Positions 322 to 29,632 of a DNA stretch of 29,632 nucleotides are shown piece by piece. A program made the position numbers and the translations under genes. The stretch lies in the NCBI GenBank assembly GCA_051891155.1, contig JBJFEV010000082.1:1-29632 (forward strand). The letters are read 5' to 3'. The stretch comes from Bacilli bacterium. GTDB taxonomy: Bacteria; Bacillota_I; Bacilli_A; RFN20; CAG-449. Position 1 is the first letter of the stretch; each line of letters begins with the position of its first letter. The notes under the pieces are model-generated. The model made no database searches. It was not told the origin of the DNA and worked only from the letters and a program-made list of their open reading frames with translations.

Positions 322-570
322 TTATTTACCTTGCACACTTTCAATAGATACTTCTTCAAAACGATATTTACTTTTTACAGAAGGATACTTTTGATGATCT
401 ACTTCACTTAAGAACATATCAAGAGGTCGAATATATAATTTAGAGTCTCCATATAAAGCTCGATAAACGACATATTCTTCTTTTGTTTCTGAATGGATAG
501 CAACATCTTCCACTAAGTAAAGATTGCCTTTAAAATGACGATATATTCTATTCTTCTTTATTTGTCTCAT
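322..570 (-). CDS. DUF1653 domain protein (small, SH3-like)
   Basis: YRHFKGNLY...HSET.E.YVVYRALYG...RPLDMF family signature. Start moved from 585 to ATG at 570, which follows a GAGGGTG RBS-like run and overlaps the uvrC 3' end. Confidence 0.9.
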   Translation of the reverse strand: MRQIKKNRIYRHFKGNLYLVEDVAIHSETKEEYVVYRALYGDSKLYIRPLDMFLSEVDHQKYPSVKSKYRFEEVSIESVQGK

Positions 571-2335
571 TTTTTTCACCCTCATTTATATAATTATAAA
601 TCGCTTTAGCAATATCAAGTGGAACTAATTGCTCTAATTCCTCGACACTTGCTTTCTTTAGACTATCTAGCGATGGATATGCCTTCATCAATAATTCTTT
701 TCGTTTCTTGCCAATACCTTTTATCTCATCAAAAAGATTATGCGTTAATCCTTTTCCTCTTTTTTGTTGATGAAAGGATATTGCATAGCGATGAACTTCA
801 TCTTGCATTCTAACAAGCATTAAAAATAAACGTGACTTATGATCGATAGGAATGACTTGATCATTATAAATTAATCCTGATGTATGATGTTTATCATTTT
901 TAGCAAGTCCAACAAGAGGAATATTTATTTCTAAAGAATCTAATACTTCTTTAGCTACATGCATTTGATTTTCTCCCCCATCGACGATGATTAAGTCAGG
1001 AAATTCTTTATTTTCATTTTTAAGGCGCGAATATCTTCTTTTAATAACTTCCCTCATCGATTTTAAATCATCTTTACCACTTGATTCTTGAATGTTAAAT
1101 TTACGGTATAAAGAAGGAGCCTTTACTCCATTTACAAAAACGACCATAGCTCCTACTGGATATGACCCTTGCAAATGAGAATTATCAAATAGTTCGATAC
1201 GTAAAGGGGTAGGTATATTTAATTTAGATCCTAATTCTTCTAAAAGGGATAAACTATCATCTTCTAATCTAGCGGTCAAAAAATGTTCATCTAAACCATT
1301 TTTAGCGTTTTCTAAAGCAATTAATAATAAATCCTTTTTAAAGCCACGTTCAGGTGCGCTAGATTTTATTTCTAAAGCATTTTCAATCTCTTGTGCCAAG
1401 TCTTCTTTTGCGATAACTAATTCCTTTGGCTTATTATGATTAATATAATATTGACCTAAGGAAGATAATATCTCTTCATTCAAGTCATCAAATGCCTCTA
1501 AAACGAAAACATTTTTACCAAGTAGATTACCTCTTCGATATGTCATAATACATAAAGAAAAATAATTTTCCCGTTCGGAATAACCAATAACATCACGATC
1601 GATATGGTCTTGAAGAGTGATGCTTTGTTTATTACAAGTTTTATCAATATCGGATAAAAGATTTTTATATTCTAAAGCTTTTTCAAATTCTAAAGAAGCG
1701 GACGCTTCTAACATCTTTTTTTCAATATCTTGTTTAATTTTTGTTGTTTCACCATTTAAGAAATGATTAATTTCATTAACTAAAGGCTCATATTCCTCTT
1801 CACTAATCTTTTTGACACAAGGTCCTAAACATTGACCTAAATGATAATATAAACATGGTTCTTTTCTTAAATTTTGACATTTTCTTAATGGAAAAATTTT
1901 ATTGAGTAAATCAATAGTATGATAACAAGAAGAAGAGGAAGGAAATGGTCCAAAATATTTAAAAGAAGGATCTTTGTCTTTATAAGATATCTTTAAAAAT
2001 GGATCCCCTTTTTTTGAAAGTGCGATAAAAGGATAAGATTTACCATCCTTTAAAAGAATATTAAATTTAGGATAATATTTTTGAATTAAATTAATTTCAA
2101 GAAGCAATGCTTCCTTTTCAGAAGGAGTTTCAATCGTATCAAAGTCTTGGATTTCTCGTACCATTCGTAAAACTTTACCTTCTTGTGGACGAGTGAAATA
2201 CTGCTTTACTCGCTTAATCAAACTCTTGGCTTTACCAACGTATATTACTTTACCATCAATATTTTTCATGATATATACGCCTGGTTTACTTGGTAATAAT
2301 TCAATTTTAGCTTTTACAAGTTCGTTATTTATCAT
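548..2335 (-). CDS. uvrC: Excinuclease ABC subunit C
   Basis: GIY-YIG (PGVYIM...IYVGKAK), Cys cluster (CQ...PCLYYHLGQCLGPC), RNase H-like endonuclease (ELFDNSH, DLIIVDGG) and C-terminal HhH (IKGIGKKR). ATGA overlap with the mutS2 stop. Confidence 0.98.
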   Translation of the reverse strand: MINNELVKAKIELLPSKPGVYIMKNIDGKVIYVGKAKSLIKRVKQYFTRPQEGKVLRMVREIQDFDTIETPSEKEALLLEINLIQKYYPKFNILLKDGKSYPFIALSKKGDPFLKISYKDKDPSFKYFGPFPSSSSCYHTIDLLNKIFPLRKCQNLRKEPCLYYHLGQCLGPCVKKISEEEYEPLVNEINHFLNGETTKIKQDIEKKMLEASASLEFEKALEYKNLLSDIDKTCNKQSITLQDHIDRDVIGYSERENYFSLCIMTYRRGNLLGKNVFVLEAFDDLNEEILSSLGQYYINHNKPKELVIAKEDLAQEIENALEIKSSAPERGFKKDLLLIALENAKNGLDEHFLTARLEDDSLSLLEELGSKLNIPTPLRIELFDNSHLQGSYPVGAMVVFVNGVKAPSLYRKFNIQESSGKDDLKSMREVIKRRYSRLKNENKEFPDLIIVDGGENQMHVAKEVLDSLEINIPLVGLAKNDKHHTSGLIYNDQVIPIDHKSRLFLMLVRMQDEVHRYAISFHQQKRGKGLTHNLFDEIKGIGKKRKELLMKAYPSLDSLKKASVEELEQLVPLDIAKAIYNYINEGEKNETNKEE

Positions 2336-4650
2336 TTAAGATATACCACAGTAGCACCTACGCCACCTTCTCCTATTCCTCCAAGACGAAATGACTTAAC
2401 TTCTTTTCTTTTCTTTAAATATTCGTGAACCGCAGTTCTTAATTTACCTGTACCTGAACCATGGATAATTCTAACTTGCGAGTAATTAGCGGCTATAGCG
2501 CTATCGAGATAACGATCTAATTCTTGAATTCCATCATCGCAAAATAAACCAATAATATTACACTCTAGAGGTACTTTAACTTCGCTCTTATAAGGAGAAA
2601 CATAAGTTAATTTTTCTTTCTTCTTTTCCTTTTTTATTTTATGAATATTATTTAATTTAGCATTAACATTCATTCCTTGATCACTCAATATTCTTACATT
2701 ATTACCTTTAATTTGTATTACTTTACCACACATTGCCGAATCATTAATTCGTACTTGATCACCCACATTAATCGTCGCATTTTCTCTTTCTTCCTCATCG
2801 TATTCGATTTGATCATCAAGTTTCTTTTTGCTTTTTATTACTTCATGAAGTTTAAATTCACCATTTTTTCTAAACTCTTCTACAATAGAATCAATTTGTT
2901 CTTTTGCTTCTTGAATTAACTTCATTTTTTCTTCATTTGCATTTTGAACTAAATCTTCTCTTTTTCTTTTAAGAATATCTTGTTGGCGTATGAGTTCTTC
3001 TTTTTCTTTTTCTACTTCTTTAAGTTTTTCTTCTAGAGTGTAAGAAATACGTTCGTTCTCTTCAATACGATCTTGCAACATCTTCATTGTTATTTCTTTA
3101 TCTGTTTTAATCTTTTGATTAATATAGTCAGAAGCAAAGGCTAAAACACGTTTATCTAATCCTAAACGTTGTCCTACTTCTAGACCATAACTCTTGCCTG
3201 CAACACCAAGGCGAAGACGATAAGTTGGTATAATATTCTTCTCATCAAATTCCATAGAAGAATTTAAGATGTAATCATGCTCCAATGCGAAGGCTTTTAT
3301 TCCATCGTAGTGAGAAGTAATAATGGAAAAACATCCTACCTCGTGCAGACGATCGATTACTCCTAAAGCAATTGCTTCCCCATCTAAAGGAGAAGTACCT
3401 GTGCCAAGTTCATCTAATATTACCAAAGAATCATATGACACTTCATCAACTATTTTAACAATCTTTGAGATGTGTCCTGAGAAAGTGGAAAGATTATCCA
3501 TTAGGGATTGATTATCACCGATATCGACAAAAATATCTTTGAAAAAACAATGTTCTCCCACTTCATCAACAGGTATCGCCAGTCCACATTCACTCATTAA
3601 AATAAGTAAGCCAATCGTTTTTATAGCTACCGTTTTACCGCCAGCATTAGGGCCGGTAATTAACATAGTTTTTTGTTTATCTAGTACAAAAGAATTCTTA
3701 ACTACTTTATTTTGATCAAGAAGAGGGTGTCTAGCTCCTTTAAAGACGATTTTTCTTTCGTTTGTAATACGAGCAACACTACCATTAATTTCAATAGCGT
3801 AATTTGCTTTTGCAAGTAAAAAATCTAAATATGAAATAACTTCTTGATTCATTTGTAAAGAAGGTAAATATTTCTCAACGTTTCTTGATAATTCATACAA
3901 AATGCGATGAATTTCTTCATGCTCTTTTTCTCTTAATCTTTGTATCTTAGCGTTTGAAGCAATTATTTCATAAGGCTCAATAAATGAAGTATTTCCCGTA
4001 TCGGACATATCTACAATTGCTCCATCAATTTTCCCTTTATAAGCCGATTTAATAGGAAGAGCATAAGAAGAATTTCTCATCGTTACTCTTTCATCATTTA
4101 AAATATCTTTATATTTAACAAGCAAAGAAGACATAATTCTTTGTTGAGAAGCTTCTTCATTACGAATAGAACGTCTTATCTCTCTTAAAGTAGATGAGGC
4201 TGAATCAGCAATATCTAAATCAGGTGTGATGATGCGATCTATATTATTTTTCAAAGATTCACATGGTTCTAATTTTCTAATTAATCCCAATACTAAAGGA
4301 TAAGTCTCATCCTTAACTGATTCGTTGAGTAAAGAAGCTGCATTTCCTAAAAGTGATGATACTTGATAAAAGAAATCAATACTTCCTACTCCATCCTTTC
4401 GTAATAAAAGAAAAAAGGAAGATAAATCCTTATGAGGTGTAATAACTAAAGAACGATATTTATAAGTATATGAAAGTGTTTCTTCTAAATATTTTAATTC
4501 GTTAACTAATTCTTCTTGTGAATTAAAAATTTCTAAATTTCTAATCTTTTCTAGGGCAATTTCACCACGAGCATACTTTTCTATCTTCTTTTTAATCAAG
4601 TCAAATTCAAAACTTTGGTAAATATCTTTCATATTTTTCACCTTCTTCAT
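2332..4650 (-). CDS. mutS2: Endonuclease MutS2 (Smr-domain; ribosome-collision factor family)
   Basis: Walker A ITGPNAGGKT, STFSGH, Walker B ILDELGTGT, coiled coil, KOW-like VGDQVRI and C-terminal Smr IIHGSGTGKLR...GGVGATV. An alternative start at 4632 is possible. Confidence 0.97.
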   Translation of the reverse strand: MKKVKNMKDIYQSFEFDLIKKKIEKYARGEIALEKIRNLEIFNSQEELVNELKYLEETLSYTYKYRSLVITPHKDLSSFFLLLRKDGVGSIDFFYQVSSLLGNAASLLNESVKDETYPLVLGLIRKLEPCESLKNNIDRIITPDLDIADSASSTLREIRRSIRNEEASQQRIMSSLLVKYKDILNDERVTMRNSSYALPIKSAYKGKIDGAIVDMSDTGNTSFIEPYEIIASNAKIQRLREKEHEEIHRILYELSRNVEKYLPSLQMNQEVISYLDFLLAKANYAIEINGSVARITNERKIVFKGARHPLLDQNKVVKNSFVLDKQKTMLITGPNAGGKTVAIKTIGLLILMSECGLAIPVDEVGEHCFFKDIFVDIGDNQSLMDNLSTFSGHISKIVKIVDEVSYDSLVILDELGTGTSPLDGEAIALGVIDRLHEVGCFSIITSHYDGIKAFALEHDYILNSSMEFDEKNIIPTYRLRLGVAGKSYGLEVGQRLGLDKRVLAFASDYINQKIKTDKEITMKMLQDRIEENERISYTLEEKLKEVEKEKEELIRQQDILKRKREDLVQNANEEKMKLIQEAKEQIDSIVEEFRKNGEFKLHEVIKSKKKLDDQIEYDEEERENATINVGDQVRINDSAMCGKVIQIKGNNVRILSDQGMNVNAKLNNIHKIKKEKKKEKLTYVSPYKSEVKVPLECNIIGLFCDDGIQELDRYLDSAIAANYSQVRIIHGSGTGKLRTAVHEYLKKRKEVKSFRLGGIGEGGVGATVVYLK

Positions 4651-4752
4651 TTAGTATTTTACCAAAACGTTACTACATTGTTAATGAAAATAATTTTTTA
4701 TTTATGAACTAATAAAGTAATTATGATAATATTTATAAAGAGGTGAGACAAA

Positions 4753-5655
4753 ATGAAAGAAAATGTATCTTTTGTCATCGATAAAGAAGTAAAAGAATTA
4801 ATGGAAAAACATTATTCATCCTATAAAACCGCTATTAAAGGTGATTACGTTGTTTTTTCTGCTTCTTTAAATTCTTCCTTAACTCTTATTATTTATTCTT
4901 CAAAAAAAGGTTATAAAGCTTATTTTTCTGGTATTGGTGCTCTTCAAGAAGCGCGTTACTGGGATAAAAAAGCTTCATTAATAATTCCTAAAGAAAAAGA
5001 AAGATATGAATGGATTAATCTTAAATCACAAATCGGATCAGATGAAGTAGGAACCGGTGATTTTTTTGGACCTGTTATTGTTGTCGCGGCATTTGTAAAA
5101 GAAGAACAAATTGATTATCTTCATCATTTAGGAGTAGATGATTCTAAGAAACTAAGTGATAAAAAAATCTTAGAAATTGTTCCTTCTTTATTAAACTGTG
5201 TCACTTACTCTATGCTTTGTCTTGACAATATTACTTACAATCAACAAATTGAAAAAGGAGAATCAATGAATTCACTTAAAGCCATCCTTCATAATCGAGC
5301 TTTACTAAATGTAGAAAAAAAGATCAATGCAAAGAATATACCTTTATTTATTGACCAATTTTGTGAAGAAGATTTATTCTTTCATTATTGTAGAAATCAA
5401 AAGGAAATCATTAAAGGTGCTACATTTAAAACTAAAGGAGAATCGTTTTTTCCTTCAGTTGCAGTTGCTTCTTTAATTGCCCGTTATACTTTTTTGAAGA
5501 AGTTGGAGGAATTAAGTAACATATACCAAATGTCCTTTCCTAAAGGCGCTTCTTTATCCGTAGATGAATTCGCCTCATCTTTTATAAAAAAATATTCTAA
5601 AAAAGAATTATATAAAGTTTGTAAAACTAATTTTATCAATTATTCTAAGTTATAA
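4753..5655 (+). CDS. rnhC: Ribonuclease HIII
   Basis: IGSDEVGTGDFFGP, GVDDSKKL, IDQF and VAVASLIAR motifs, plus an N-terminal TBP-like extension. AGAGGTGA RBS. Confidence 0.95.
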   Translation: MKENVSFVIDKEVKELMEKHYSSYKTAIKGDYVVFSASLNSSLTLIIYSSKKGYKAYFSGIGALQEARYWDKKASLIIPKEKERYEWINLKSQIGSDEVGTGDFFGPVIVVAAFVKEEQIDYLHHLGVDDSKKLSDKKILEIVPSLLNCVTYSMLCLDNITYNQQIEKGESMNSLKAILHNRALLNVEKKINAKNIPLFIDQFCEEDLFFHYCRNQKEIIKGATFKTKGESFFPSVAVASLIARYTFLKKLEELSNIYQMSFPKGASLSVDEFASSFIKKYSKKELYKVCKTNFINYSKL

Positions 5656-25180: not shown

Positions 25181-25208
25181 AAAAAAAATCCAAAGCATTA
25201 GCTTTGGA
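25181..25208 (-). terminator. Intrinsic terminator of the SipW operon
   Basis: TCCAAAGC-TAAT-GCTTTGGA followed by T8; the TAA stop of the 902-aa gene lies in the loop. Confidence 0.85.
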
Positions 25209-27906
25209 CATATAATATTGCACTTGAAGTTATTTTATAAAAATATGAAATATCTCCATAAATTAAGTTTTCATCTCCTAAAGCGACAAATGCTTCATTG
25301 GATGATTTACTCAAATCCACTCTTATGACAGGCTTCTTAAGTACATAATCGCATAAATAAATAGTCGCGTTACCATATTTAGCTTTTAATGCTTCATACA
25401 TTGATAAAGATGAACATGGTGATCCGCTCAATATTGAAGAATCACTTGTACAAATATCTCCTCCACATAAATAATCACCAATTCCATATTTATTAGCCCA
25501 TAATAAATGTTCACCTAAATTATAATGATCAATAAAATATCCATTATCACCATCATAATCTTTAACTACAGTGCCTAAATCCATATATTCATCGATAATT
25601 TTTATGAATTTGTTTGTATAACGATATGCATATATATCATAATATTCGGTATATGTATTATACGATTCAAATGAATTACCATTCATTCGTCTAACAATCA
25701 ATAAATCATATAAGCCTTTTCCACGAATCTGATCAAATGAGAAGGTTAAAACACCATTTTTCAATGAATAAGTCAATCCATCTAATTTTTTAAACACTTT
25801 TCCACCACTAGAAAATGCAGAAGGAACATATACTCCACCTGTTGGCGAAGTATTATACCAAGCGGAAGAATTTTCTGTATGATGAGAGGCAATTTGGAAA
25901 TTTAAACTTCTAGTATTAGAGAAGTTAGCGTTTCTATAAATATAAGTATTGTTAGTGATAACATCTCCAAGTAATGATGTATCTCCACCTTCTACTCCAC
26001 CAATATTACTTTCACTTATTGAATAAGCGTTTTCAATTTTTTGAAATGTTCTTGTGGTAGTGTAATTATCTTCATAATAGCTATTGTAATATGAAGAATA
26101 ATCTTCTCCAGTAAAATAAGAGTCATCATAGTTATCGCTATATAAATGATTATCACTATCAATTTCATATAGAATCACCATGTATTTTTTATATTTAGGA
26201 TCAGAAGTACTATTATATGACTTTGTAACATATACTTGGTTATTGTGAGATTCATCTGTAGATGATCCTAAGTTTACCCCATTAGTATTTGCACCAGTAT
26301 AATGAGCATCAGTTTGATTTCCCTTATATAGTTCTAAACCAACTTTGGAGAAATCATATTGTAAGTCCTTTTTATAAAGTGAAGGAAAATTCTCTTTATC
26401 ATTGGTAATTCTTTTTATAAAATCTTTTATTCGTGCACTTTGATCAGTATCTACACTTATACTTGAATCAACAATACTATTTGCATCAATTGACATACTA
26501 GAATTAGCTACAAACATATATATGTTTATATATTTATTTGAATAATCATAGTCTTCTTTTTTCTTAATTTCAAAAGCTTTACGATTAAAAGTATATGTAT
26601 ACGCCAAGGAAGAATCTAGTTGTAATGGATCTAATCTTACATCTAAATAATCAAAGTCAGTTTCTAAACATAATTGTCTTCCTACTGCATAATGAAGATA
26701 ACTATTTCCATTATACAAATCAATATCGCCTTCTTTAGTATAATGCTCATTAGAATAAGTAAATACGCGAGAAGCATCACGTATAATATTAGAGCCTTTC
26801 CATCCTAAAAAGAAGACACCATCTCTTCCTTTGATTTCTGCAAGAGTTTGCGAATACCCTCCGTTTGATATTGGATCAATCACAGCATCTTCACTGATAA
26901 AGAAACGAGGAAATATTCTAATTACATTGCTATCATCATTTTCGGGTTTAATTTTATTTAAATATTTTGATAAATCAGATGAAAATTCAAAACATGGTCC
27001 CATATCTTTTGGATTAGAACCTTCTTGGCGAGTAGTATAAGAACATGATATCTTATATCCACCACTTCCATCACTTACACTATTTGCTACATACCATTCA
27101 TAGTTTTTATTATCCTCAAAATAACCGGAATCTTCATAAATAGCGGCGATTGGATAATCGATCATACTATAAAACTTATTTGTGGACAAAGAATATTTAA
27201 CTTCAATTCGTAAAGGAAGGTATCTTCTTTCTTTATAACCTGTTTGAGGTGTTAATGAAAAAGAAGGAGTATTATCACTACCATATACCGTATAGCCAGA
27301 AGAATCTACTTGTACAAAAGTATCATATTCTGCCCATCCTCCATACCTATCATTGCAATAGTGTTGAATGGAAGAAGTTCTGTAATTAGCCGCGCCATTA
27401 TCATTTCCAGATACGTATTGAGAATAAGCGGTTTGTGCCGCTCTTGTTCGATTTTCATTTGGATAATCAGTTATATTACTAATAAAACTAGCATAAGTAC
27501 TGCATCCATTATATCCTTTTGCCACTCCTCCATTTTTTACTAATGGATAAGAAGGATTATTGGGATCTTTTAATGGTTCACCTAATAAATCATCTTCTTC
27601 TATTTCAAAATATCCGAATGCTTCTTCAGGTTTTGGAGAATTGTTTGGGTCAGATAAATAATCGCTATAAATATCAATATATGCCATTGAAGGAAAGAAA
27701 TATAAAACATAAGTTTCATCTTCATCACCTTCAAATGTATAATTTTCATATATTTTATTTACTTCCGCTTTAGTGGTTATATCCACATTATCTTTAGAAG
27801 TATTAGAGACAGGAAAAAACCACATAGAAAAGCCTGTACTAGTAGCTAGTACAGCAAAAGTTAATAATATAATAAGTGAATATTTTAACTTTCTTAACTT
27901 ATACAT
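25198..27906 (-). CDS. Large exported protein (902 aa), putative SipW-processed adhesin or fibre-associated subunit
   Basis: Basic N-region, hydrophobic core, then GFSMWFF. Y/S/N/D-rich beta-like body with no C-terminal TM or LPxTG anchor. AGGAG RBS overlaps the upstream TAG. Confidence 0.8.
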   Translation of the reverse strand: MYKLRKLKYSLIILLTFAVLATSTGFSMWFFPVSNTSKDNVDITTKAEVNKIYENYTFEGDEDETYVLYFFPSMAYIDIYSDYLSDPNNSPKPEEAFGYFEIEEDDLLGEPLKDPNNPSYPLVKNGGVAKGYNGCSTYASFISNITDYPNENRTRAAQTAYSQYVSGNDNGAANYRTSSIQHYCNDRYGGWAEYDTFVQVDSSGYTVYGSDNTPSFSLTPQTGYKERRYLPLRIEVKYSLSTNKFYSMIDYPIAAIYEDSGYFEDNKNYEWYVANSVSDGSGGYKISCSYTTRQEGSNPKDMGPCFEFSSDLSKYLNKIKPENDDSNVIRIFPRFFISEDAVIDPISNGGYSQTLAEIKGRDGVFFLGWKGSNIIRDASRVFTYSNEHYTKEGDIDLYNGNSYLHYAVGRQLCLETDFDYLDVRLDPLQLDSSLAYTYTFNRKAFEIKKKEDYDYSNKYINIYMFVANSSMSIDANSIVDSSISVDTDQSARIKDFIKRITNDKENFPSLYKKDLQYDFSKVGLELYKGNQTDAHYTGANTNGVNLGSSTDESHNNQVYVTKSYNSTSDPKYKKYMVILYEIDSDNHLYSDNYDDSYFTGEDYSSYYNSYYEDNYTTTRTFQKIENAYSISESNIGGVEGGDTSLLGDVITNNTYIYRNANFSNTRSLNFQIASHHTENSSAWYNTSPTGGVYVPSAFSSGGKVFKKLDGLTYSLKNGVLTFSFDQIRGKGLYDLLIVRRMNGNSFESYNTYTEYYDIYAYRYTNKFIKIIDEYMDLGTVVKDYDGDNGYFIDHYNLGEHLLWANKYGIGDYLCGGDICTSDSSILSGSPCSSLSMYEALKAKYGNATIYLCDYVLKKPVIRVDLSKSSNEAFVALGDENLIYGDISYFYKITSSAILYVQS

Positions 27907-27915
27907 ATAATTCTC

Positions 27916-28671
27916 CTAACTAACATATTCTGAATATAAAGATATTCTAATTTTCCAATTTTGATTATATGAATCTTTAACAAGTTGATTATATTTTGAA
28001 ATTGTTAATGGCTTCACATCTTGACTCACATATTTAATAACTTTGCTCAAGCGGATGATATATGAGACTTCATTTTCATCATTATTATTGATGTTTTTAT
28101 CAATATTTAATGCATCTAAGTATGATGAAGGAATAGTAGAGCTTTCATCATAATATGTATAACATCCAAATGACGAGTCATATATATACTCAAAAGTAGA
28201 TACTGTTTCCACATAATGACTTAAAGGATTTAAAGTATTTCCCCCATCGTCTGTATCTATTTCATTGCTAATTTGAAGTTTTAAGCCTAATTTTAATTTG
28301 GTCAATCCTTGACTAACTAAATAATCTAAATTTGTTTGACTAGGCTTAACAAAAGTCATAATAAATTTATCATCGCTTTCGATATACTCTTGATCATTTT
28401 CATCAAATTTCTTTGAATAGAAGGAAATACCATCAAATAAATCAGCACTTGAGTATGCCCCTTCACTTAATACAACATATAAAGGTTGTTGATCAATTCT
28501 AAAATATCCTGCACTAGCTTCATCAGTAATCACTACTTGAATTTGCTTTTCTTCTTCCTTTTTTTCTCCAGTTTCTATAAACATCCATGAACAAAAACCT
28601 GCTCCTACAAGAGCAACAACTGTTCCAAATGCGATTATAGTGGATAATAACTTACTCATTTTCTTGGTCAT
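27916..28671 (-). CDS. Exported protein (251 aa), putative SipW-processed fibre subunit
   Basis: Basic N-region, hydrophobic core, then GFCSWMF at the same residue positions as in the 902-aa protein. Overlaps the sipW 3' end; no C-terminal anchor. Confidence 0.8.
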   Translation of the reverse strand: MTKKMSKLLSTIIAFGTVVALVGAGFCSWMFIETGEKKEEEKQIQVVITDEASAGYFRIDQQPLYVVLSEGAYSSADLFDGISFYSKKFDENDQEYIESDDKFIMTFVKPSQTNLDYLVSQGLTKLKLGLKLQISNEIDTDDGGNTLNPLSHYVETVSTFEYIYDSSFGCYTYYDESSTIPSSYLDALNIDKNINNNDENEVSYIIRLSKVIKYVSQDVKPLTISKYNQLVKDSYNQNWKIRISLYSEYVS

Positions 28672-29632
28672 TGTTATTATCTCCCTCTTCCTCTACTAAA
28701 GAAGATTGGTTATCTTCAACTATATCATTATCGAGTTCTGTAGATTCTTCATTAATTTGCTCTTCGTTTTCAGCTTCTTCATTTTCTTCTAATTTAGAAT
28801 CGCTTTCTTCTTTTGCTTTTTCCTCGATTTGTTCAAGAATGTATTCAATTCTTTTATCATATGTTTTTTCAATTTTTTCTTCCGTAAAATCAAATGCAAG
28901 GAGGAACATCATAGCACTTACTAAAGCAACAATACCAATATTAGATTGTAGATAAATAAATGCTATTCCAAAACCATAGTTTTGATAACCGCTATACCTT
29001 CCAACAATATCATCTAAAGTTATCTTCATTTCAAAAGATAAAGAAGTACTATTGGCATCACCTCTTAAGGTATAACATGTAACACCTGTTTCTTCATCTT
29101 CATAGATCCTTATAACTCTATGAACATAAATTGTTCCTTTGTATTTATAAGCTACAATATCATATAATTCTATTTCATCATTGCTTGTTACTTTATCAAT
29201 TCCTATCAAACTATAAGTCTCAATTTGATCAGTTAAATTATTCTCTTTAATATAAGTATTAGAATCATTTACAGTTTCCATTGATCCAGTATGAATAGCA
29301 ATATATGTAGTATCAAAAATATATAAATTTTGATTATTTAATTTGAAAACTAAAGCAAAACCAAATGCGACAATTAAGACACCAAAGATAATAGAAGTAA
29401 ATAAATCCATAATGATTTCTACTACCTTTTTACCAGCCTTCTTTTCTAGGAAAATACTTTTAATATTTGTTTTATCTAAAGTTTCTCCTTTTTTAAGAGC
29501 TCTTTTCTCTAATGCCTTGATTTTATTATCTACATCAACTTTTAGAGTTTCATCTTCATGACCATATGAAACATGCTTTCTTTTATATATGGAATATAGG
29601 AAAAAGAGCACACCAAAAACAATAGCTAGTCC
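28652..29632 (-). CDS. sipW: Signal peptidase I, SipW/Sec11-type (S26B); 5' end beyond the right edge
   Basis: Catalytic TGSM (Ser at 29284-29282), VHRV (His at 29122-29120) and RGDAN (29062-29051), flanked by TM segments. The frame stays open to 29632 (GLAIVFGV...), so the track's GTG at 29611 is not the real start. Confidence 0.88.
   Translation of the reverse strand, partial: GLAIVFGVLFFLYSIYKRKHVSYGHEDETLKVDVDNKIKALEKRALKKGETLDKTNIKSIFLEKKAGKKVVEIIMDLFTSIIFGVLIVAFGFALVFKLNNQNLYIFDTTYIAIHTGSMETVNDSNTYIKENNLTDQIETYSLIGIDKVTSNDEIELYDIVAYKYKGTIYVHRVIRIYEDEETGVTCYTLRGDANSTSLSFEMKITLDDIVGRYSGYQNYGFGIAFIYLQSNIGIVALVSAMMFLLAFDFTEEKIEKTYDKRIEYILEQIEEKAKEESDSKLEENEEAENEEQINEESTELDNDIVEDNQSSLVEEEGDNNNDQENE

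What the first reader, a model, noticed from the sequence alone, without database searches (positions are those of the whole stretch)
27814..28671. Position-identical G25-F26-x-x-W29-x-F31 signal motif in both SipW neighbours
The 902-aa protein reads ...ATSTGFSMWFF (27834-27814) and the 251-aa protein ...LVGAGFCSWMF (28599-28579). G, F, W and F fall on the same residue numbers although the proteins are otherwise unrelated. The spacing matches the TasA site T-W-A|A-F (small -3, aromatic -2, small -1, aromatic +2), predicting cleavage at GFS|MW and GFC|SW. It looks like a new variant of SipW-cognate signal peptides, with W at +2 and F at +4.
Basis: partly seen in the sequence, partly recalled or inferred. 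Interest (0 to 1): 0.75.

Follow-up and report, generated by a model that had tools for sequence, protein, structure and literature searches.

The report
Private export signal of SipW-like peptidase
Two otherwise unrelated secreted proteins next to a SipW-type signal peptidase share a conserved signal-peptide ending (G-F-small-x-W-x-F) that marks this peptidase's likely clients in many uncultured small-genome gut Bacilli and that no annotation model recognises.

Summary
Both ORFs read G25-F26-x-x-W29-x-F31 at the stated coordinates.

- **Not chance.** GF..W.F occurs four times in the whole 1.37-Mb MAG, against 0.4-0.8 expected. All four lie at the end of an N-terminal signal, and all four sit in one gene cluster around the peptidase; the cluster is split over contigs C150 and C82.
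- **Client list.** A signal-only HMM picks out six ORFs in this genome. The two extra ones flank a second peptidase paralogue on C122.
- **Conservation.** In 199 distinct family signals the pattern is G(-5), G/A(-3), F/Y(-2), S/A/C/G(-1), variable(+1), W/F(+2), F(+4). The mature parts are only about 18% identical.
- **Link to the peptidase.** Of 151 genomes of the order, 59 carry the signal. Of these, 58 have the long Ser/His (Sec11/SipW-type) peptidase, usually within 5 kb. Only 1 of the 81 genomes without a strong peptidase match has the signal.
- **Not annotated.** TIGR04088-90, Pfam and NCBIfam do not recognise the signal or the proteins.
- **Cleavage site.** Cleavage after position 27 (GFS|MW, GFC|SW) fits the -3/-1 rule best. 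It mirrors TasA (TWA|AF), with aromatic P2 and P2'. It is unproven.
The identical residue numbers are incidental, because the paralogues have G23. F31 is not invariant.

This is a new variant of a known kind. The same scan has already flagged this signal class in other genomes.

The parts
28652..29632 (-). SipW-like (Sec11/S26B-type, Ser-His) signal peptidase gene. Its 5' end is cut by the contig end. The full gene encodes 346 aa (L003 8980-10020).
   Evidence: TIGR02228 E 8.9e-8 and NF046067 (SipW) E 1.2e-6, both below cut-off. A profile of 12 homologues hits human SEC11A/SEC11C at E about 1e-6. S137, H191 and D212 are invariant. Full length comes from the Logan contig.
29276..29290 (-). TGSME box with the catalytic Ser (S137 in full-length numbering)
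   Evidence: S and M are invariant, and T and E nearly invariant (>=90%), in 12 homologues
29114..29125 (-). VHRV box with the catalytic His (H191)
   Evidence: Invariant H-R; aligned to the HR of SEC11A
29051..29065 (-). RGDAN box (D212)
   Evidence: Invariant G-D-x-N; aligned to the GDNN of SEC11A
27916..28671 (-). 251-aa secreted client. It belongs to a family of 190-290-aa beta-sandwich proteins and overlaps the peptidase gene by 20 nt.
   Evidence: Paralogue of the 218-aa and 227-aa proteins upstream. The family has 416 cluster representatives. AF2 model: pLDDT 82, signal helix 3-25, disordered 26-42, sandwich 43-249.
28591..28671 (-). Predicted signal peptide of the 251-aa protein (residues 1-27, predicted cut GFC|SW)
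   Evidence: Signal-only HMM E 3.9e-10; position profile
28579..28599 (-). Motif GFCSWMF (residues 25-31)
25198..27906 (-). 902-aa secreted client. An orthologous protein of about 610-930 aa sits in most of the related clusters inspected. It has no Pfam or NCBIfam match.
27826..27906 (-). Predicted signal peptide of the 902-aa protein (residues 1-27, predicted cut GFS|MW)
   Evidence: Signal-only HMM E 3.5e-5; position profile
27814..27834 (-). Motif GFSMWFF (residues 25-31)

Best explanation
The G-F-x-x-W-x-F string is the C-terminal end and cleavage region of a specialised Sec signal peptide. Its general form is a K/R-rich start, about 15 hydrophobic residues, then V-G-[STA]-G-[FY]-[SAC] | x-[WF]-x-F.

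This signal marks the clients of the co-encoded SipW/Sec11-type (Ser-His) signal peptidase. The most likely mechanism has three steps:

1. The Sec system exports the preproteins.
2. The bulky aromatic residues at P2 and P2' make the site a poor substrate for the ordinary P-type signal peptidase, as has been shown for TasA.
3. The dedicated ER-type peptidase cuts after the small residue at position 27, giving GFS|MW in the 902-aa protein and GFC|SW in the 251-aa protein.

The mature proteins would then begin x-W-x-F followed by a flexible polar stretch. This may be an N-terminal arm for assembly into a surface structure.

What is shown: the motif, its extreme conservation, its restriction to six proteins of this genome, and its tight genomic linkage to the peptidase. 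What is inferred: the cleavage, its exact position, the dependence on this peptidase, and any fibre assembly.
For: Genome context
- Motif and coordinates are confirmed.
- There are only 4 exact hits in the genome, all at signal ends.
- The Logan contig L003 shows one cluster: 218-aa client, 227-aa client, peptidase, 251-aa client, 902-aa client.
- The signal-only HMM separates six ORFs (E <= 3.5e-5) from everything else (E >= 0.017). Most of the rest are lipoprotein signals.

Conservation
- 150 of 151 listed family proteins (the best 150 hits of the representative search, which found 416 at E <= 0.001, plus one close orthologue) carry the motif. The mature regions average 18% column identity.
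- Profile of 199 distinct signals: -5 G 91%, -3 G/A 100%, -2 F/Y 98%, -1 S/A/C/G 100%, +1 variable including L, V, M, F, Y and D, +2 W 95% or F, +4 F 95%.

Link to the peptidase
- In the order sample of 151 genomes, 59 have the signal at E <= 1e-5 and 70 have the peptidase at E <= 1e-30. 58 have both, and 1 has the signal only.
- 28 of the 30 best signal hits lie within 5 kb of a peptidase hit on the same contig.
- In two other families of the class, 5 of 5 loci inspected again have the peptidase beside the clients.
- The peptidase is ER/archaeal type: invariant Ser, His and Asp boxes, and SEC11A/C profile hits.
- P-type LepB homologues exist in same-genus and same-family genomes, so the SipW-like enzyme is an extra one there.

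Precedent
- TasA is cut by SipW at TWA|AFND, and aromatic P2 and P2' residues hinder LepB (PMC10269814).
Against: - There is no experimental evidence of cleavage or of dependence on this peptidase.
- Two other sites cannot be excluded by sequence alone. G-S-G|F also obeys the -3/-1 rule. An ungapped alignment with TasA's VGGGTWA|AF would put the cut one residue later (A|W).
- The complex prediction of peptidase plus signal gave no answer.
- In at least one related genome (G033) no P-type signal peptidase was found. There the SipW-like enzymes may be general rather than dedicated.
- 12 of 70 genomes with the peptidase showed no strong signal hit, so the signal model does not capture all clients.
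- The mature small proteins are not detectably TasA-like. The fibre analogy therefore rests on gene context only.
Confidence: 0.78

Rival explanations
1. It is the same dedicated signal, but the cut is elsewhere. One option is after the conserved G of G-[STA]-G|F, which would leave F-S-A-W-x-F as the mature N-terminus. The other is one residue later (G-F-S-A|W), as an ungapped alignment with TasA VGGGTWA|AF would suggest.
For: G at -5 (91%) and G/A at -3 (100%) of my numbering would serve as P3 and P1 for a G|F cut. The ungapped alignment of V-G-x-G with TasA's VGGGTWA|AFND puts A|W at the scissile bond.
Against: For A|W, P1 would be L, V, M, F, Y or D in about 18% of signals, including M in the window's own 902-aa protein, and P3 would be F/Y in 98%. 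Both violate the -3/-1 rule. For G|F, the c-region would be only three residues long, and the invariant small residue two positions further on would have no explanation.
Confidence: 0.2
2. The N-terminal segment is not cleaved. It acts as a signal-anchor, and G-F-x-x-W-x-F is an aromatic membrane-interface or assembly motif that holds the proteins on the cell surface. The neighbouring peptidase would act on only some of them, or only later.
For: Trp and Phe residues are typical of membrane interfaces (established knowledge). C. perfringens BsaA oligomers remain membrane-anchored, and SipW is proposed to act after assembly (PMC11580942). The AF2 model shows one continuous helix 3-25 followed by a flexible linker.
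Against: Invariant small residues at exactly -3 and -1 with a variable +1 are the signature of a signal-peptidase site, not of an interface motif. The strict genomic coupling to a signal peptidase argues the same way.
Confidence: 0.1
3. The shared N-terminus reflects only common descent or gene conversion among neighbouring genes. It has no special relation to the peptidase, and any signal peptidase could process it.
For: Three of the four cluster proteins are paralogues, so a shared leader could be inherited.
Against: The 902-aa family shares nothing but the signal with the small family. The motif stays over 95% conserved across families and orders while the mature parts drop to 18% identity. 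Its presence tracks the peptidase gene across 151 genomes.
Confidence: 0.05
4. It is a type IV pilin or pseudopilin (class III) leader cut at G|F by a prepilin peptidase.
For: The G-F dipeptide resembles the G|F of prepilins.
Against: The hydrophobic segment lies before the G-F, not after it. There is no conserved Glu at +5, and no prepilin peptidase or pilus ATPase in the cluster. The neighbouring enzyme is an S26B peptidase.
Confidence: 0.01

Closest known systems
SipW-cognate signal peptides of Bacillus TasA/TapA/CalY (NCBIfam TIGR04088), tapA-sipW-tasA operon
   Same: A dedicated ER/archaeal-type (Ser-His) signal peptidase is encoded beside its clients. The signal is a tripartite Sec signal whose end is unusually conserved and G-rich before the site. 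It has small residues at -3 and -1 and aromatic residues at -2 and +2: TasA reads G-G-G-T-W-A|A-F, and here it is G-S-G-F-S|A-W-x-F.
   Different: The TIGR04088 model does not match. The consensus is G-F-[SA]-x-W-x-F instead of G-T-x-A-x-F-x-D, with W rather than F at +2 and a further F at +4. The mature proteins are not detectably TasA/camelysin-like. The peptidase is much longer, with an extra N-terminal TM segment, a charged cytoplasmic loop and a long tail, and it scores far below the SipW equivalog cut-off (28 against 190 bits).
Clostridium perfringens sipW-bsaA-bsaB-bsaC operon (Obana et al. 2020, as cited in PMC11580942)
   Same: The peptidase gene is co-transcribed with several secreted proteins of different sizes that lack a sortase motif. 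A disordered N-terminal arm follows the signal.
   Different: BsaA and BsaB are remote TasA homologues, and BsaC has a vWA domain. None of these families is detectable here. I saw no evidence for an isopeptide triad or for oligomers in this system.
Eukaryotic/archaeal signal peptidase catalytic subunit SEC11 (PDB 7P2P, 7P2Q)
   Same: The catalytic Ser, His and Asp boxes align.
   Different: This is a stand-alone bacterial membrane protein with three predicted TM segments and a lineage-specific insertion after the Ser box.

Membership tests
SipW-cognate class signal peptide (TIGR04088; related TIGR04089/TIGR04090 exported families) | Match to the family HMM at or above its cut-off (19 bits for TIGR04088) | tested here: not met
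   There is no match in the whole genome at E <= 10, while the control rings in B. subtilis and Haloferax. There is no match for the window proteins or their N-termini, and none in 91 family members at E <= 0.1.
SipW-cognate class signal peptide (TIGR04088; related TIGR04089/TIGR04090 exported families) | Tripartite N-terminal signal with small -3/-1 and an aromatic residue at +2 | tested here: met
   Profile of 199 signals: -3 G/A 100%, -1 S/A/C/G 100%, -2 F/Y 98%, +2 W/F 100%. The regex used to place the window demanded these residue classes, but 150 of 151 listed family proteins satisfied it.
SipW-cognate class signal peptide (TIGR04088; related TIGR04089/TIGR04090 exported families) | Genes lie beside an ER/archaeal-type signal peptidase I gene | tested here: met
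   All six clients of this genome flank such a gene. 58 of 59 genomes with the signal have the peptidase, and 28 of the 30 best hits lie within 5 kb of it.
SipW-cognate class signal peptide (TIGR04088; related TIGR04089/TIGR04090 exported families) | Cleavage depends on the SipW-type enzyme | not testable with these tools
   This needs genetics or biochemistry. The complex prediction gave no answer.
ER/archaeal-type signal peptidase I (MEROPS S26B; SipW, Sec11; TIGR02228) | Ser-His catalytic pair in the GSM and HR boxes, plus the GDxN box | tested here: met
   S137-M138, H191-R192 and G211-D212-x-N214 are invariant in 12 homologues. The HR and GDxN boxes align with SEC11A.
ER/archaeal-type signal peptidase I (MEROPS S26B; SipW, Sec11; TIGR02228) | Family HMM score above the curated cut-off | tested here: not met
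   TIGR02228 gives 32.2 bits against a cut-off of 51.85. NF046067 (SipW of Bacillus) gives 28.3 against 190. Both E-values are significant (about 1e-7 and 1e-6), so this is a divergent member of the superfamily, not an equivalog of SipW.
TasA/camelysin matrix proteins (Pfam PF12389 Peptidase_M73) | Sequence match to PF12389 or to solved TasA | tested here: not met
   1 of 91 members at E 0.045 only. The profile against PDB sequences gives no hit at E <= 10. The Atlas lead of 0.88 to a cluster with 22% PF12389 is below the reliable range.
TasA/camelysin matrix proteins (Pfam PF12389 Peptidase_M73) | TasA-like jelly-roll fold | tested here: inconclusive
   The AF2 model is a beta-sandwich (pLDDT 82). 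Foldseek finds nothing in PDB or AFDB. VIA-align gives a best Z of 4.5 and Z 3.4 for the TasA fibre 8aur, among many Ig-like and pilin domains.
Type IV prepilin (class III) leader | Short charged leader, G|F, then a hydrophobic helix with Glu at +5 | tested here: not met
   The hydrophobic segment precedes the G-F, and polar residues follow the motif.

The most novel reading that the evidence does not exclude
The conserved residues after the cut (x-W-x-F plus the flexible polar arm) are not merely tolerated by the peptidase. They would be the business end of the mature proteins: a shared N-terminal donor arm by which small subunits and the large protein plug into one another. In that reading the peptidase licenses assembly of a so far undescribed, non-TasA surface fibre in small-genome gut Bacilli.
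Probability: 0.2. Interest if true: 0.65.

Novelty: new variant of a known kind. Interest (0 to 1): 0.45.

Why it matters
The motif gives a simple, specific handle for listing the substrates of a dedicated signal peptidase. A 32-position HMM separates clients from all other ORFs by more than two orders of magnitude in E-value.

The handle applies to a large group of uncultured, small-genome gut Bacilli whose surface proteins are all annotated 'hypothetical'. It extends the SipW 'private signal' principle to a second, unrecognised consensus. That consensus keeps the physico-chemical logic of the TasA site (small -3/-1, aromatic -2/+2).

This supports the idea that aromatic P2/P2' residues are what divert a substrate from the general peptidase to an ER-type one. 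A curated model for this signal would improve annotation of hundreds of MAG species. It would also point to their probable adhesion or surface-structure genes.

Tried and rejected
- **Complex prediction.** Peptidase residues 90-285 with client residues 1-60 gave score 0.00, 'no answer'. It counts neither for nor against.
- **Fold searches.** Foldseek of the client model against PDB and AlphaFold DB clusters found nothing below E 0.02. VIA-align over 48,161 chains gave a best Z of 4.5, only generic Ig-like and pilin-like sandwiches. A TasA-like fold is therefore not shown.
- **Sequence searches.**
  - phmmer of the full-length peptidase against PDB sequences gave only low-complexity tail hits. 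The catalytic-domain profile was needed to reach SEC11.
  - The word-indexed homology search found only the protein itself and one orthologue. The exhaustive HMMER search was needed to find the family.
- **Locus search.** The single-protein run gave 5 loci, all from uncultured bacteria; three titles read 'Mollicutes', 'Bacillales' or 'Bacilli' bacterium MAGs and two give no taxon.
- **Literature.** A search for the motif strings found only unrelated papers.
- **Rejected readings.** The type IV prepilin reading of G|F is rejected on anatomy. The significance of identical residue numbers is rejected because the paralogues differ by two positions.
Full report
**1. The observation**

- The window is a whole contig, C82 of a 1.37-Mb, 30% GC, 74%-complete MAG.
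- On the minus strand, three co-oriented genes end the contig:
  - a peptidase gene at 28652-29632, with its 5' end cut off by the contig end;
  - a 251-aa ORF at 27916-28671;
  - a 902-aa ORF at 25198-27906.
- The 902-aa protein reads G25-F26-S-M-W29-F-F31 (window 27814-27834). The 251-aa protein reads G25-F26-C-S-W29-M-F31 (window 28579-28599).
- Both starts are ATG codons with a good Shine-Dalgarno at normal spacing.
- Apart from the signal, the two proteins share nothing detectable. BLASTP aligns only residues 3-39 (E 0.14). A profile of the small-protein family hits the large protein only through its signal, and gives E = 3 once the signal is removed.

**2. More than chance**

- In all stop-to-stop ORFs of 50 aa or more in the genome, GF..W.F occurs four times, where composition predicts 0.4-0.8. 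All four follow an N-terminal K/R-rich, hydrophobic segment.
- The other two hits lie on contig C150. A longer Logan contig carrying the same genes (L003) shows that C150 and C82 are neighbours. The cluster reads: 218-aa client, 227-aa client, 346-aa peptidase, 251-aa client, 902-aa client, then a non-coding gap and tkt.
- The 218-, 227- and 251-aa proteins are paralogues. In the first two the motif sits at G23/F24/W27/F29, so the 'position-identical' numbering is incidental.
- A 32-position HMM built from signals alone (A4) picks out six ORFs in this genome (E 1e-14 to 3.5e-5). The next-best ORF has E 0.017, and most of the rest are lipoprotein signals.
- The two additional clients read GVGFAGWVI and STGFAAWVM. 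They lie on C122 beside a second paralogous peptidase.

**3. The family and its signal**

- An exhaustive HMMER search found 416 cluster representatives at E <= 0.001. Of the 151 proteins held (the best 150 hits plus one close orthologue), 150 carry the motif. The exception reads GFSIWLS.
- Mean column identity of 91 members is 18%. The nearly invariant columns are G22, G24, F25, W28 and F30 of the signal, plus five positions of the mature part.
- Over 199 distinct signals, numbered from the proposed cut, the profile is:

| Position | Residues |
|---|---|
| -7 and -6 | V/I/L |
| -5 | G 91% |
| -4 | S/T/A |
| -3 | G 97% or A |
| -2 | F 89% or Y |
| -1 | S, A, C or G only |
| +1 | A 66%, but also L, V, M, F, Y, D |
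| +2 | W 95% or F |
| +3 | Y/V and others |
| +4 | F 95% |
| +5 to +7 | G/N/S/D/E/T |

- The large proteins of related clusters carry looser versions: GLSYWYF, GFSDFLF, AYAMWHF, GYADFYF, AFCTWYF, GSSIWIF.
- The 85%-identical orthologue of the 251-aa protein has L in place of F31.

**4. The neighbouring enzyme**

- The partial protein matches TIGR02228 (archaeal-type signal peptidase I, E 8.9e-8) and the Bacillus SipW model (E 1.2e-6). Both scores are below the curated cut-offs.
- Twelve homologues share invariant Ser-Met (TGSME), His-Arg (VHRI) and Gly-Asp-x-Asn (RGDAN) boxes.
- Their catalytic-domain profile hits human SEC11A and SEC11C at E about 1e-6, aligning the His and Asp boxes.
- It is therefore an ER/archaeal-type Ser-His peptidase. 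It is a divergent one, with an extra N-terminal TM segment, a charged loop, an insertion after the Ser box and a variable tail.
- P-type (LepB-like) peptidases are present in same-genus and same-family genomes. In this lineage the SipW-like enzyme is therefore an additional enzyme.
- In this incomplete MAG only weak P-type hits were seen. In one genome of another family (G033) none was found.

**5. Linkage of signal and peptidase**

- In a sample of 151 genomes of the order, 59 have the signal at E <= 1e-5 and 70 have the peptidase catalytic domain at E <= 1e-30.
- 58 genomes have both, 12 have the peptidase only, and 1 has the signal only. That one is G007, which has a divergent peptidase homologue inside the same cluster. 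The remaining 80 have neither.
- Related genomes are not independent, so I give no P-value.
- Of the 30 best signal hits, 28 lie within 5 kb of a peptidase hit on the same contig. The other two are in fragmented assemblies.
- In a sample of 301 genomes of the class, the signal was found only in the own order and in two other families (5 of 18 and 1 of 16). It was found in none of the other roughly 230 genomes.
- In those two families, all five loci inspected have two clients followed by the peptidase, a protein of about 600 aa, one of about 420 aa and an ABC transporter. This is the C122-type cassette.
It is therefore answered in the negative for the genomes searched.

**6. Relation to the known SipW-cognate signal**

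- TIGR04088 finds nothing in this genome at E <= 10, although the same search rings in the B. subtilis and Haloferax controls.
- None of 91 family members matches TIGR04088-90 or any matrix-protein model. Pfam gives only noise.
- The logic of the site is nevertheless the same. PMC10269814 gives the TasA site as VGGGTWA|AFND. It reports that aromatic residues at P2' are absent from 143 verified LepB substrates. It also shows that both W at P2 and F at P2' hinder LepB, while the ER-type SipW processes TasA.
- Here the only universally rule-conforming site is [GA]-[FY]-[SACG] | x-[WF], which has small residues at P3 and P1 and aromatic residues at P2 and P2'.
- The alternative A|W would put L, V, M, F, Y or D at P1 in about 18% of signals, including M in the window's 902-aa protein, and F/Y at P3.
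- The alternative G-S-G|F obeys the rule, but it leaves a three-residue c-region and does not explain the invariant small residue two positions later.

**7. What the clients are**

- The AF2 model of the 251-aa protein (pLDDT 82) shows the signal helix at 3-25, a disordered stretch at 26-42 and a beta-sandwich at 43-249.
- Foldseek finds no match in PDB or AlphaFold DB.
- VIA-align gives only weak, generic Ig-like and pilin-like similarities. The best Z is 4.5; the TasA fibre scores Z 3.4, and donor-strand pilins score 3.2-3.8.
- Membership in the TasA family is thus not shown.
- Three features resemble the bsa and tasA operons (PMC11580942):
  - several small paralogues sit with one large protein and a private peptidase;
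  - there is no sortase motif;
  - a flexible N-terminal arm follows the cut.
- A surface structure or adhesin is the most plausible role, by inference only.

**8. Verdict**

The cleavage itself is unproven.
- The system is a new variant of a known kind. It is unannotated and I found no paper on it.
This window adds a further member and a quantified description rather than a first sighting.

Noticed in passing
G000 contig C122, about 376-4753 (not in the window); also L046-L050 and L029: There is a second cassette in the same genome. It has two clients (GVGFAGWVI, STGFAAWVM), a 337-aa paralogous SipW-like peptidase and a 602-aa membrane protein. In relatives, where the contig continues, a protein of about 420 aa and an ABC transporter follow. 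This cassette type is the one that occurs in two other families of the class.
   Followed up: partly
L003 1-10020 (Logan contig that extends the window beyond 29632): In this MAG the gene cluster is split between contigs C150 and C82. Upstream of the two extra clients lie a 1478-aa polytopic membrane protein, a 405-aa protein with an LRR_5 hit, a 237-aa membrane protein and an acidic protein.
   Followed up: partly
Alignment A3 columns about 460-600 (peptidases of L019, L021, L022, L023, L026, L028): Many homologues of the peptidase carry a C-terminal cytoplasmic domain of about 100-150 aa that the window's enzyme lacks. The same profile region also matches many other 300-1100-aa ORFs in these genomes, so it is a separate, widespread, unannotated domain.
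   Followed up: no
whole genome G000: Nearly all other N-terminal signals that the signal HMM touches weakly are lipoprotein signals (hydrophobic stretch followed by Cys). Lipoproteins seem to dominate the exported proteome of this organism.
   Followed up: no
G033 (same order, another family): No P-type (LepB-like) signal peptidase I was found in this 94%-complete genome, although it has four SipW-like paralogues. In some lineages the ER-type enzymes may be the only type I signal peptidases.
   Followed up: no
window 28652-28671: The 251-aa gene starts 20 nt before the stop of the peptidase gene, and the 902-aa gene starts 9 nt after the stop of the 251-aa gene. This suggests translational coupling of peptidase and clients.
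   Followed up: no
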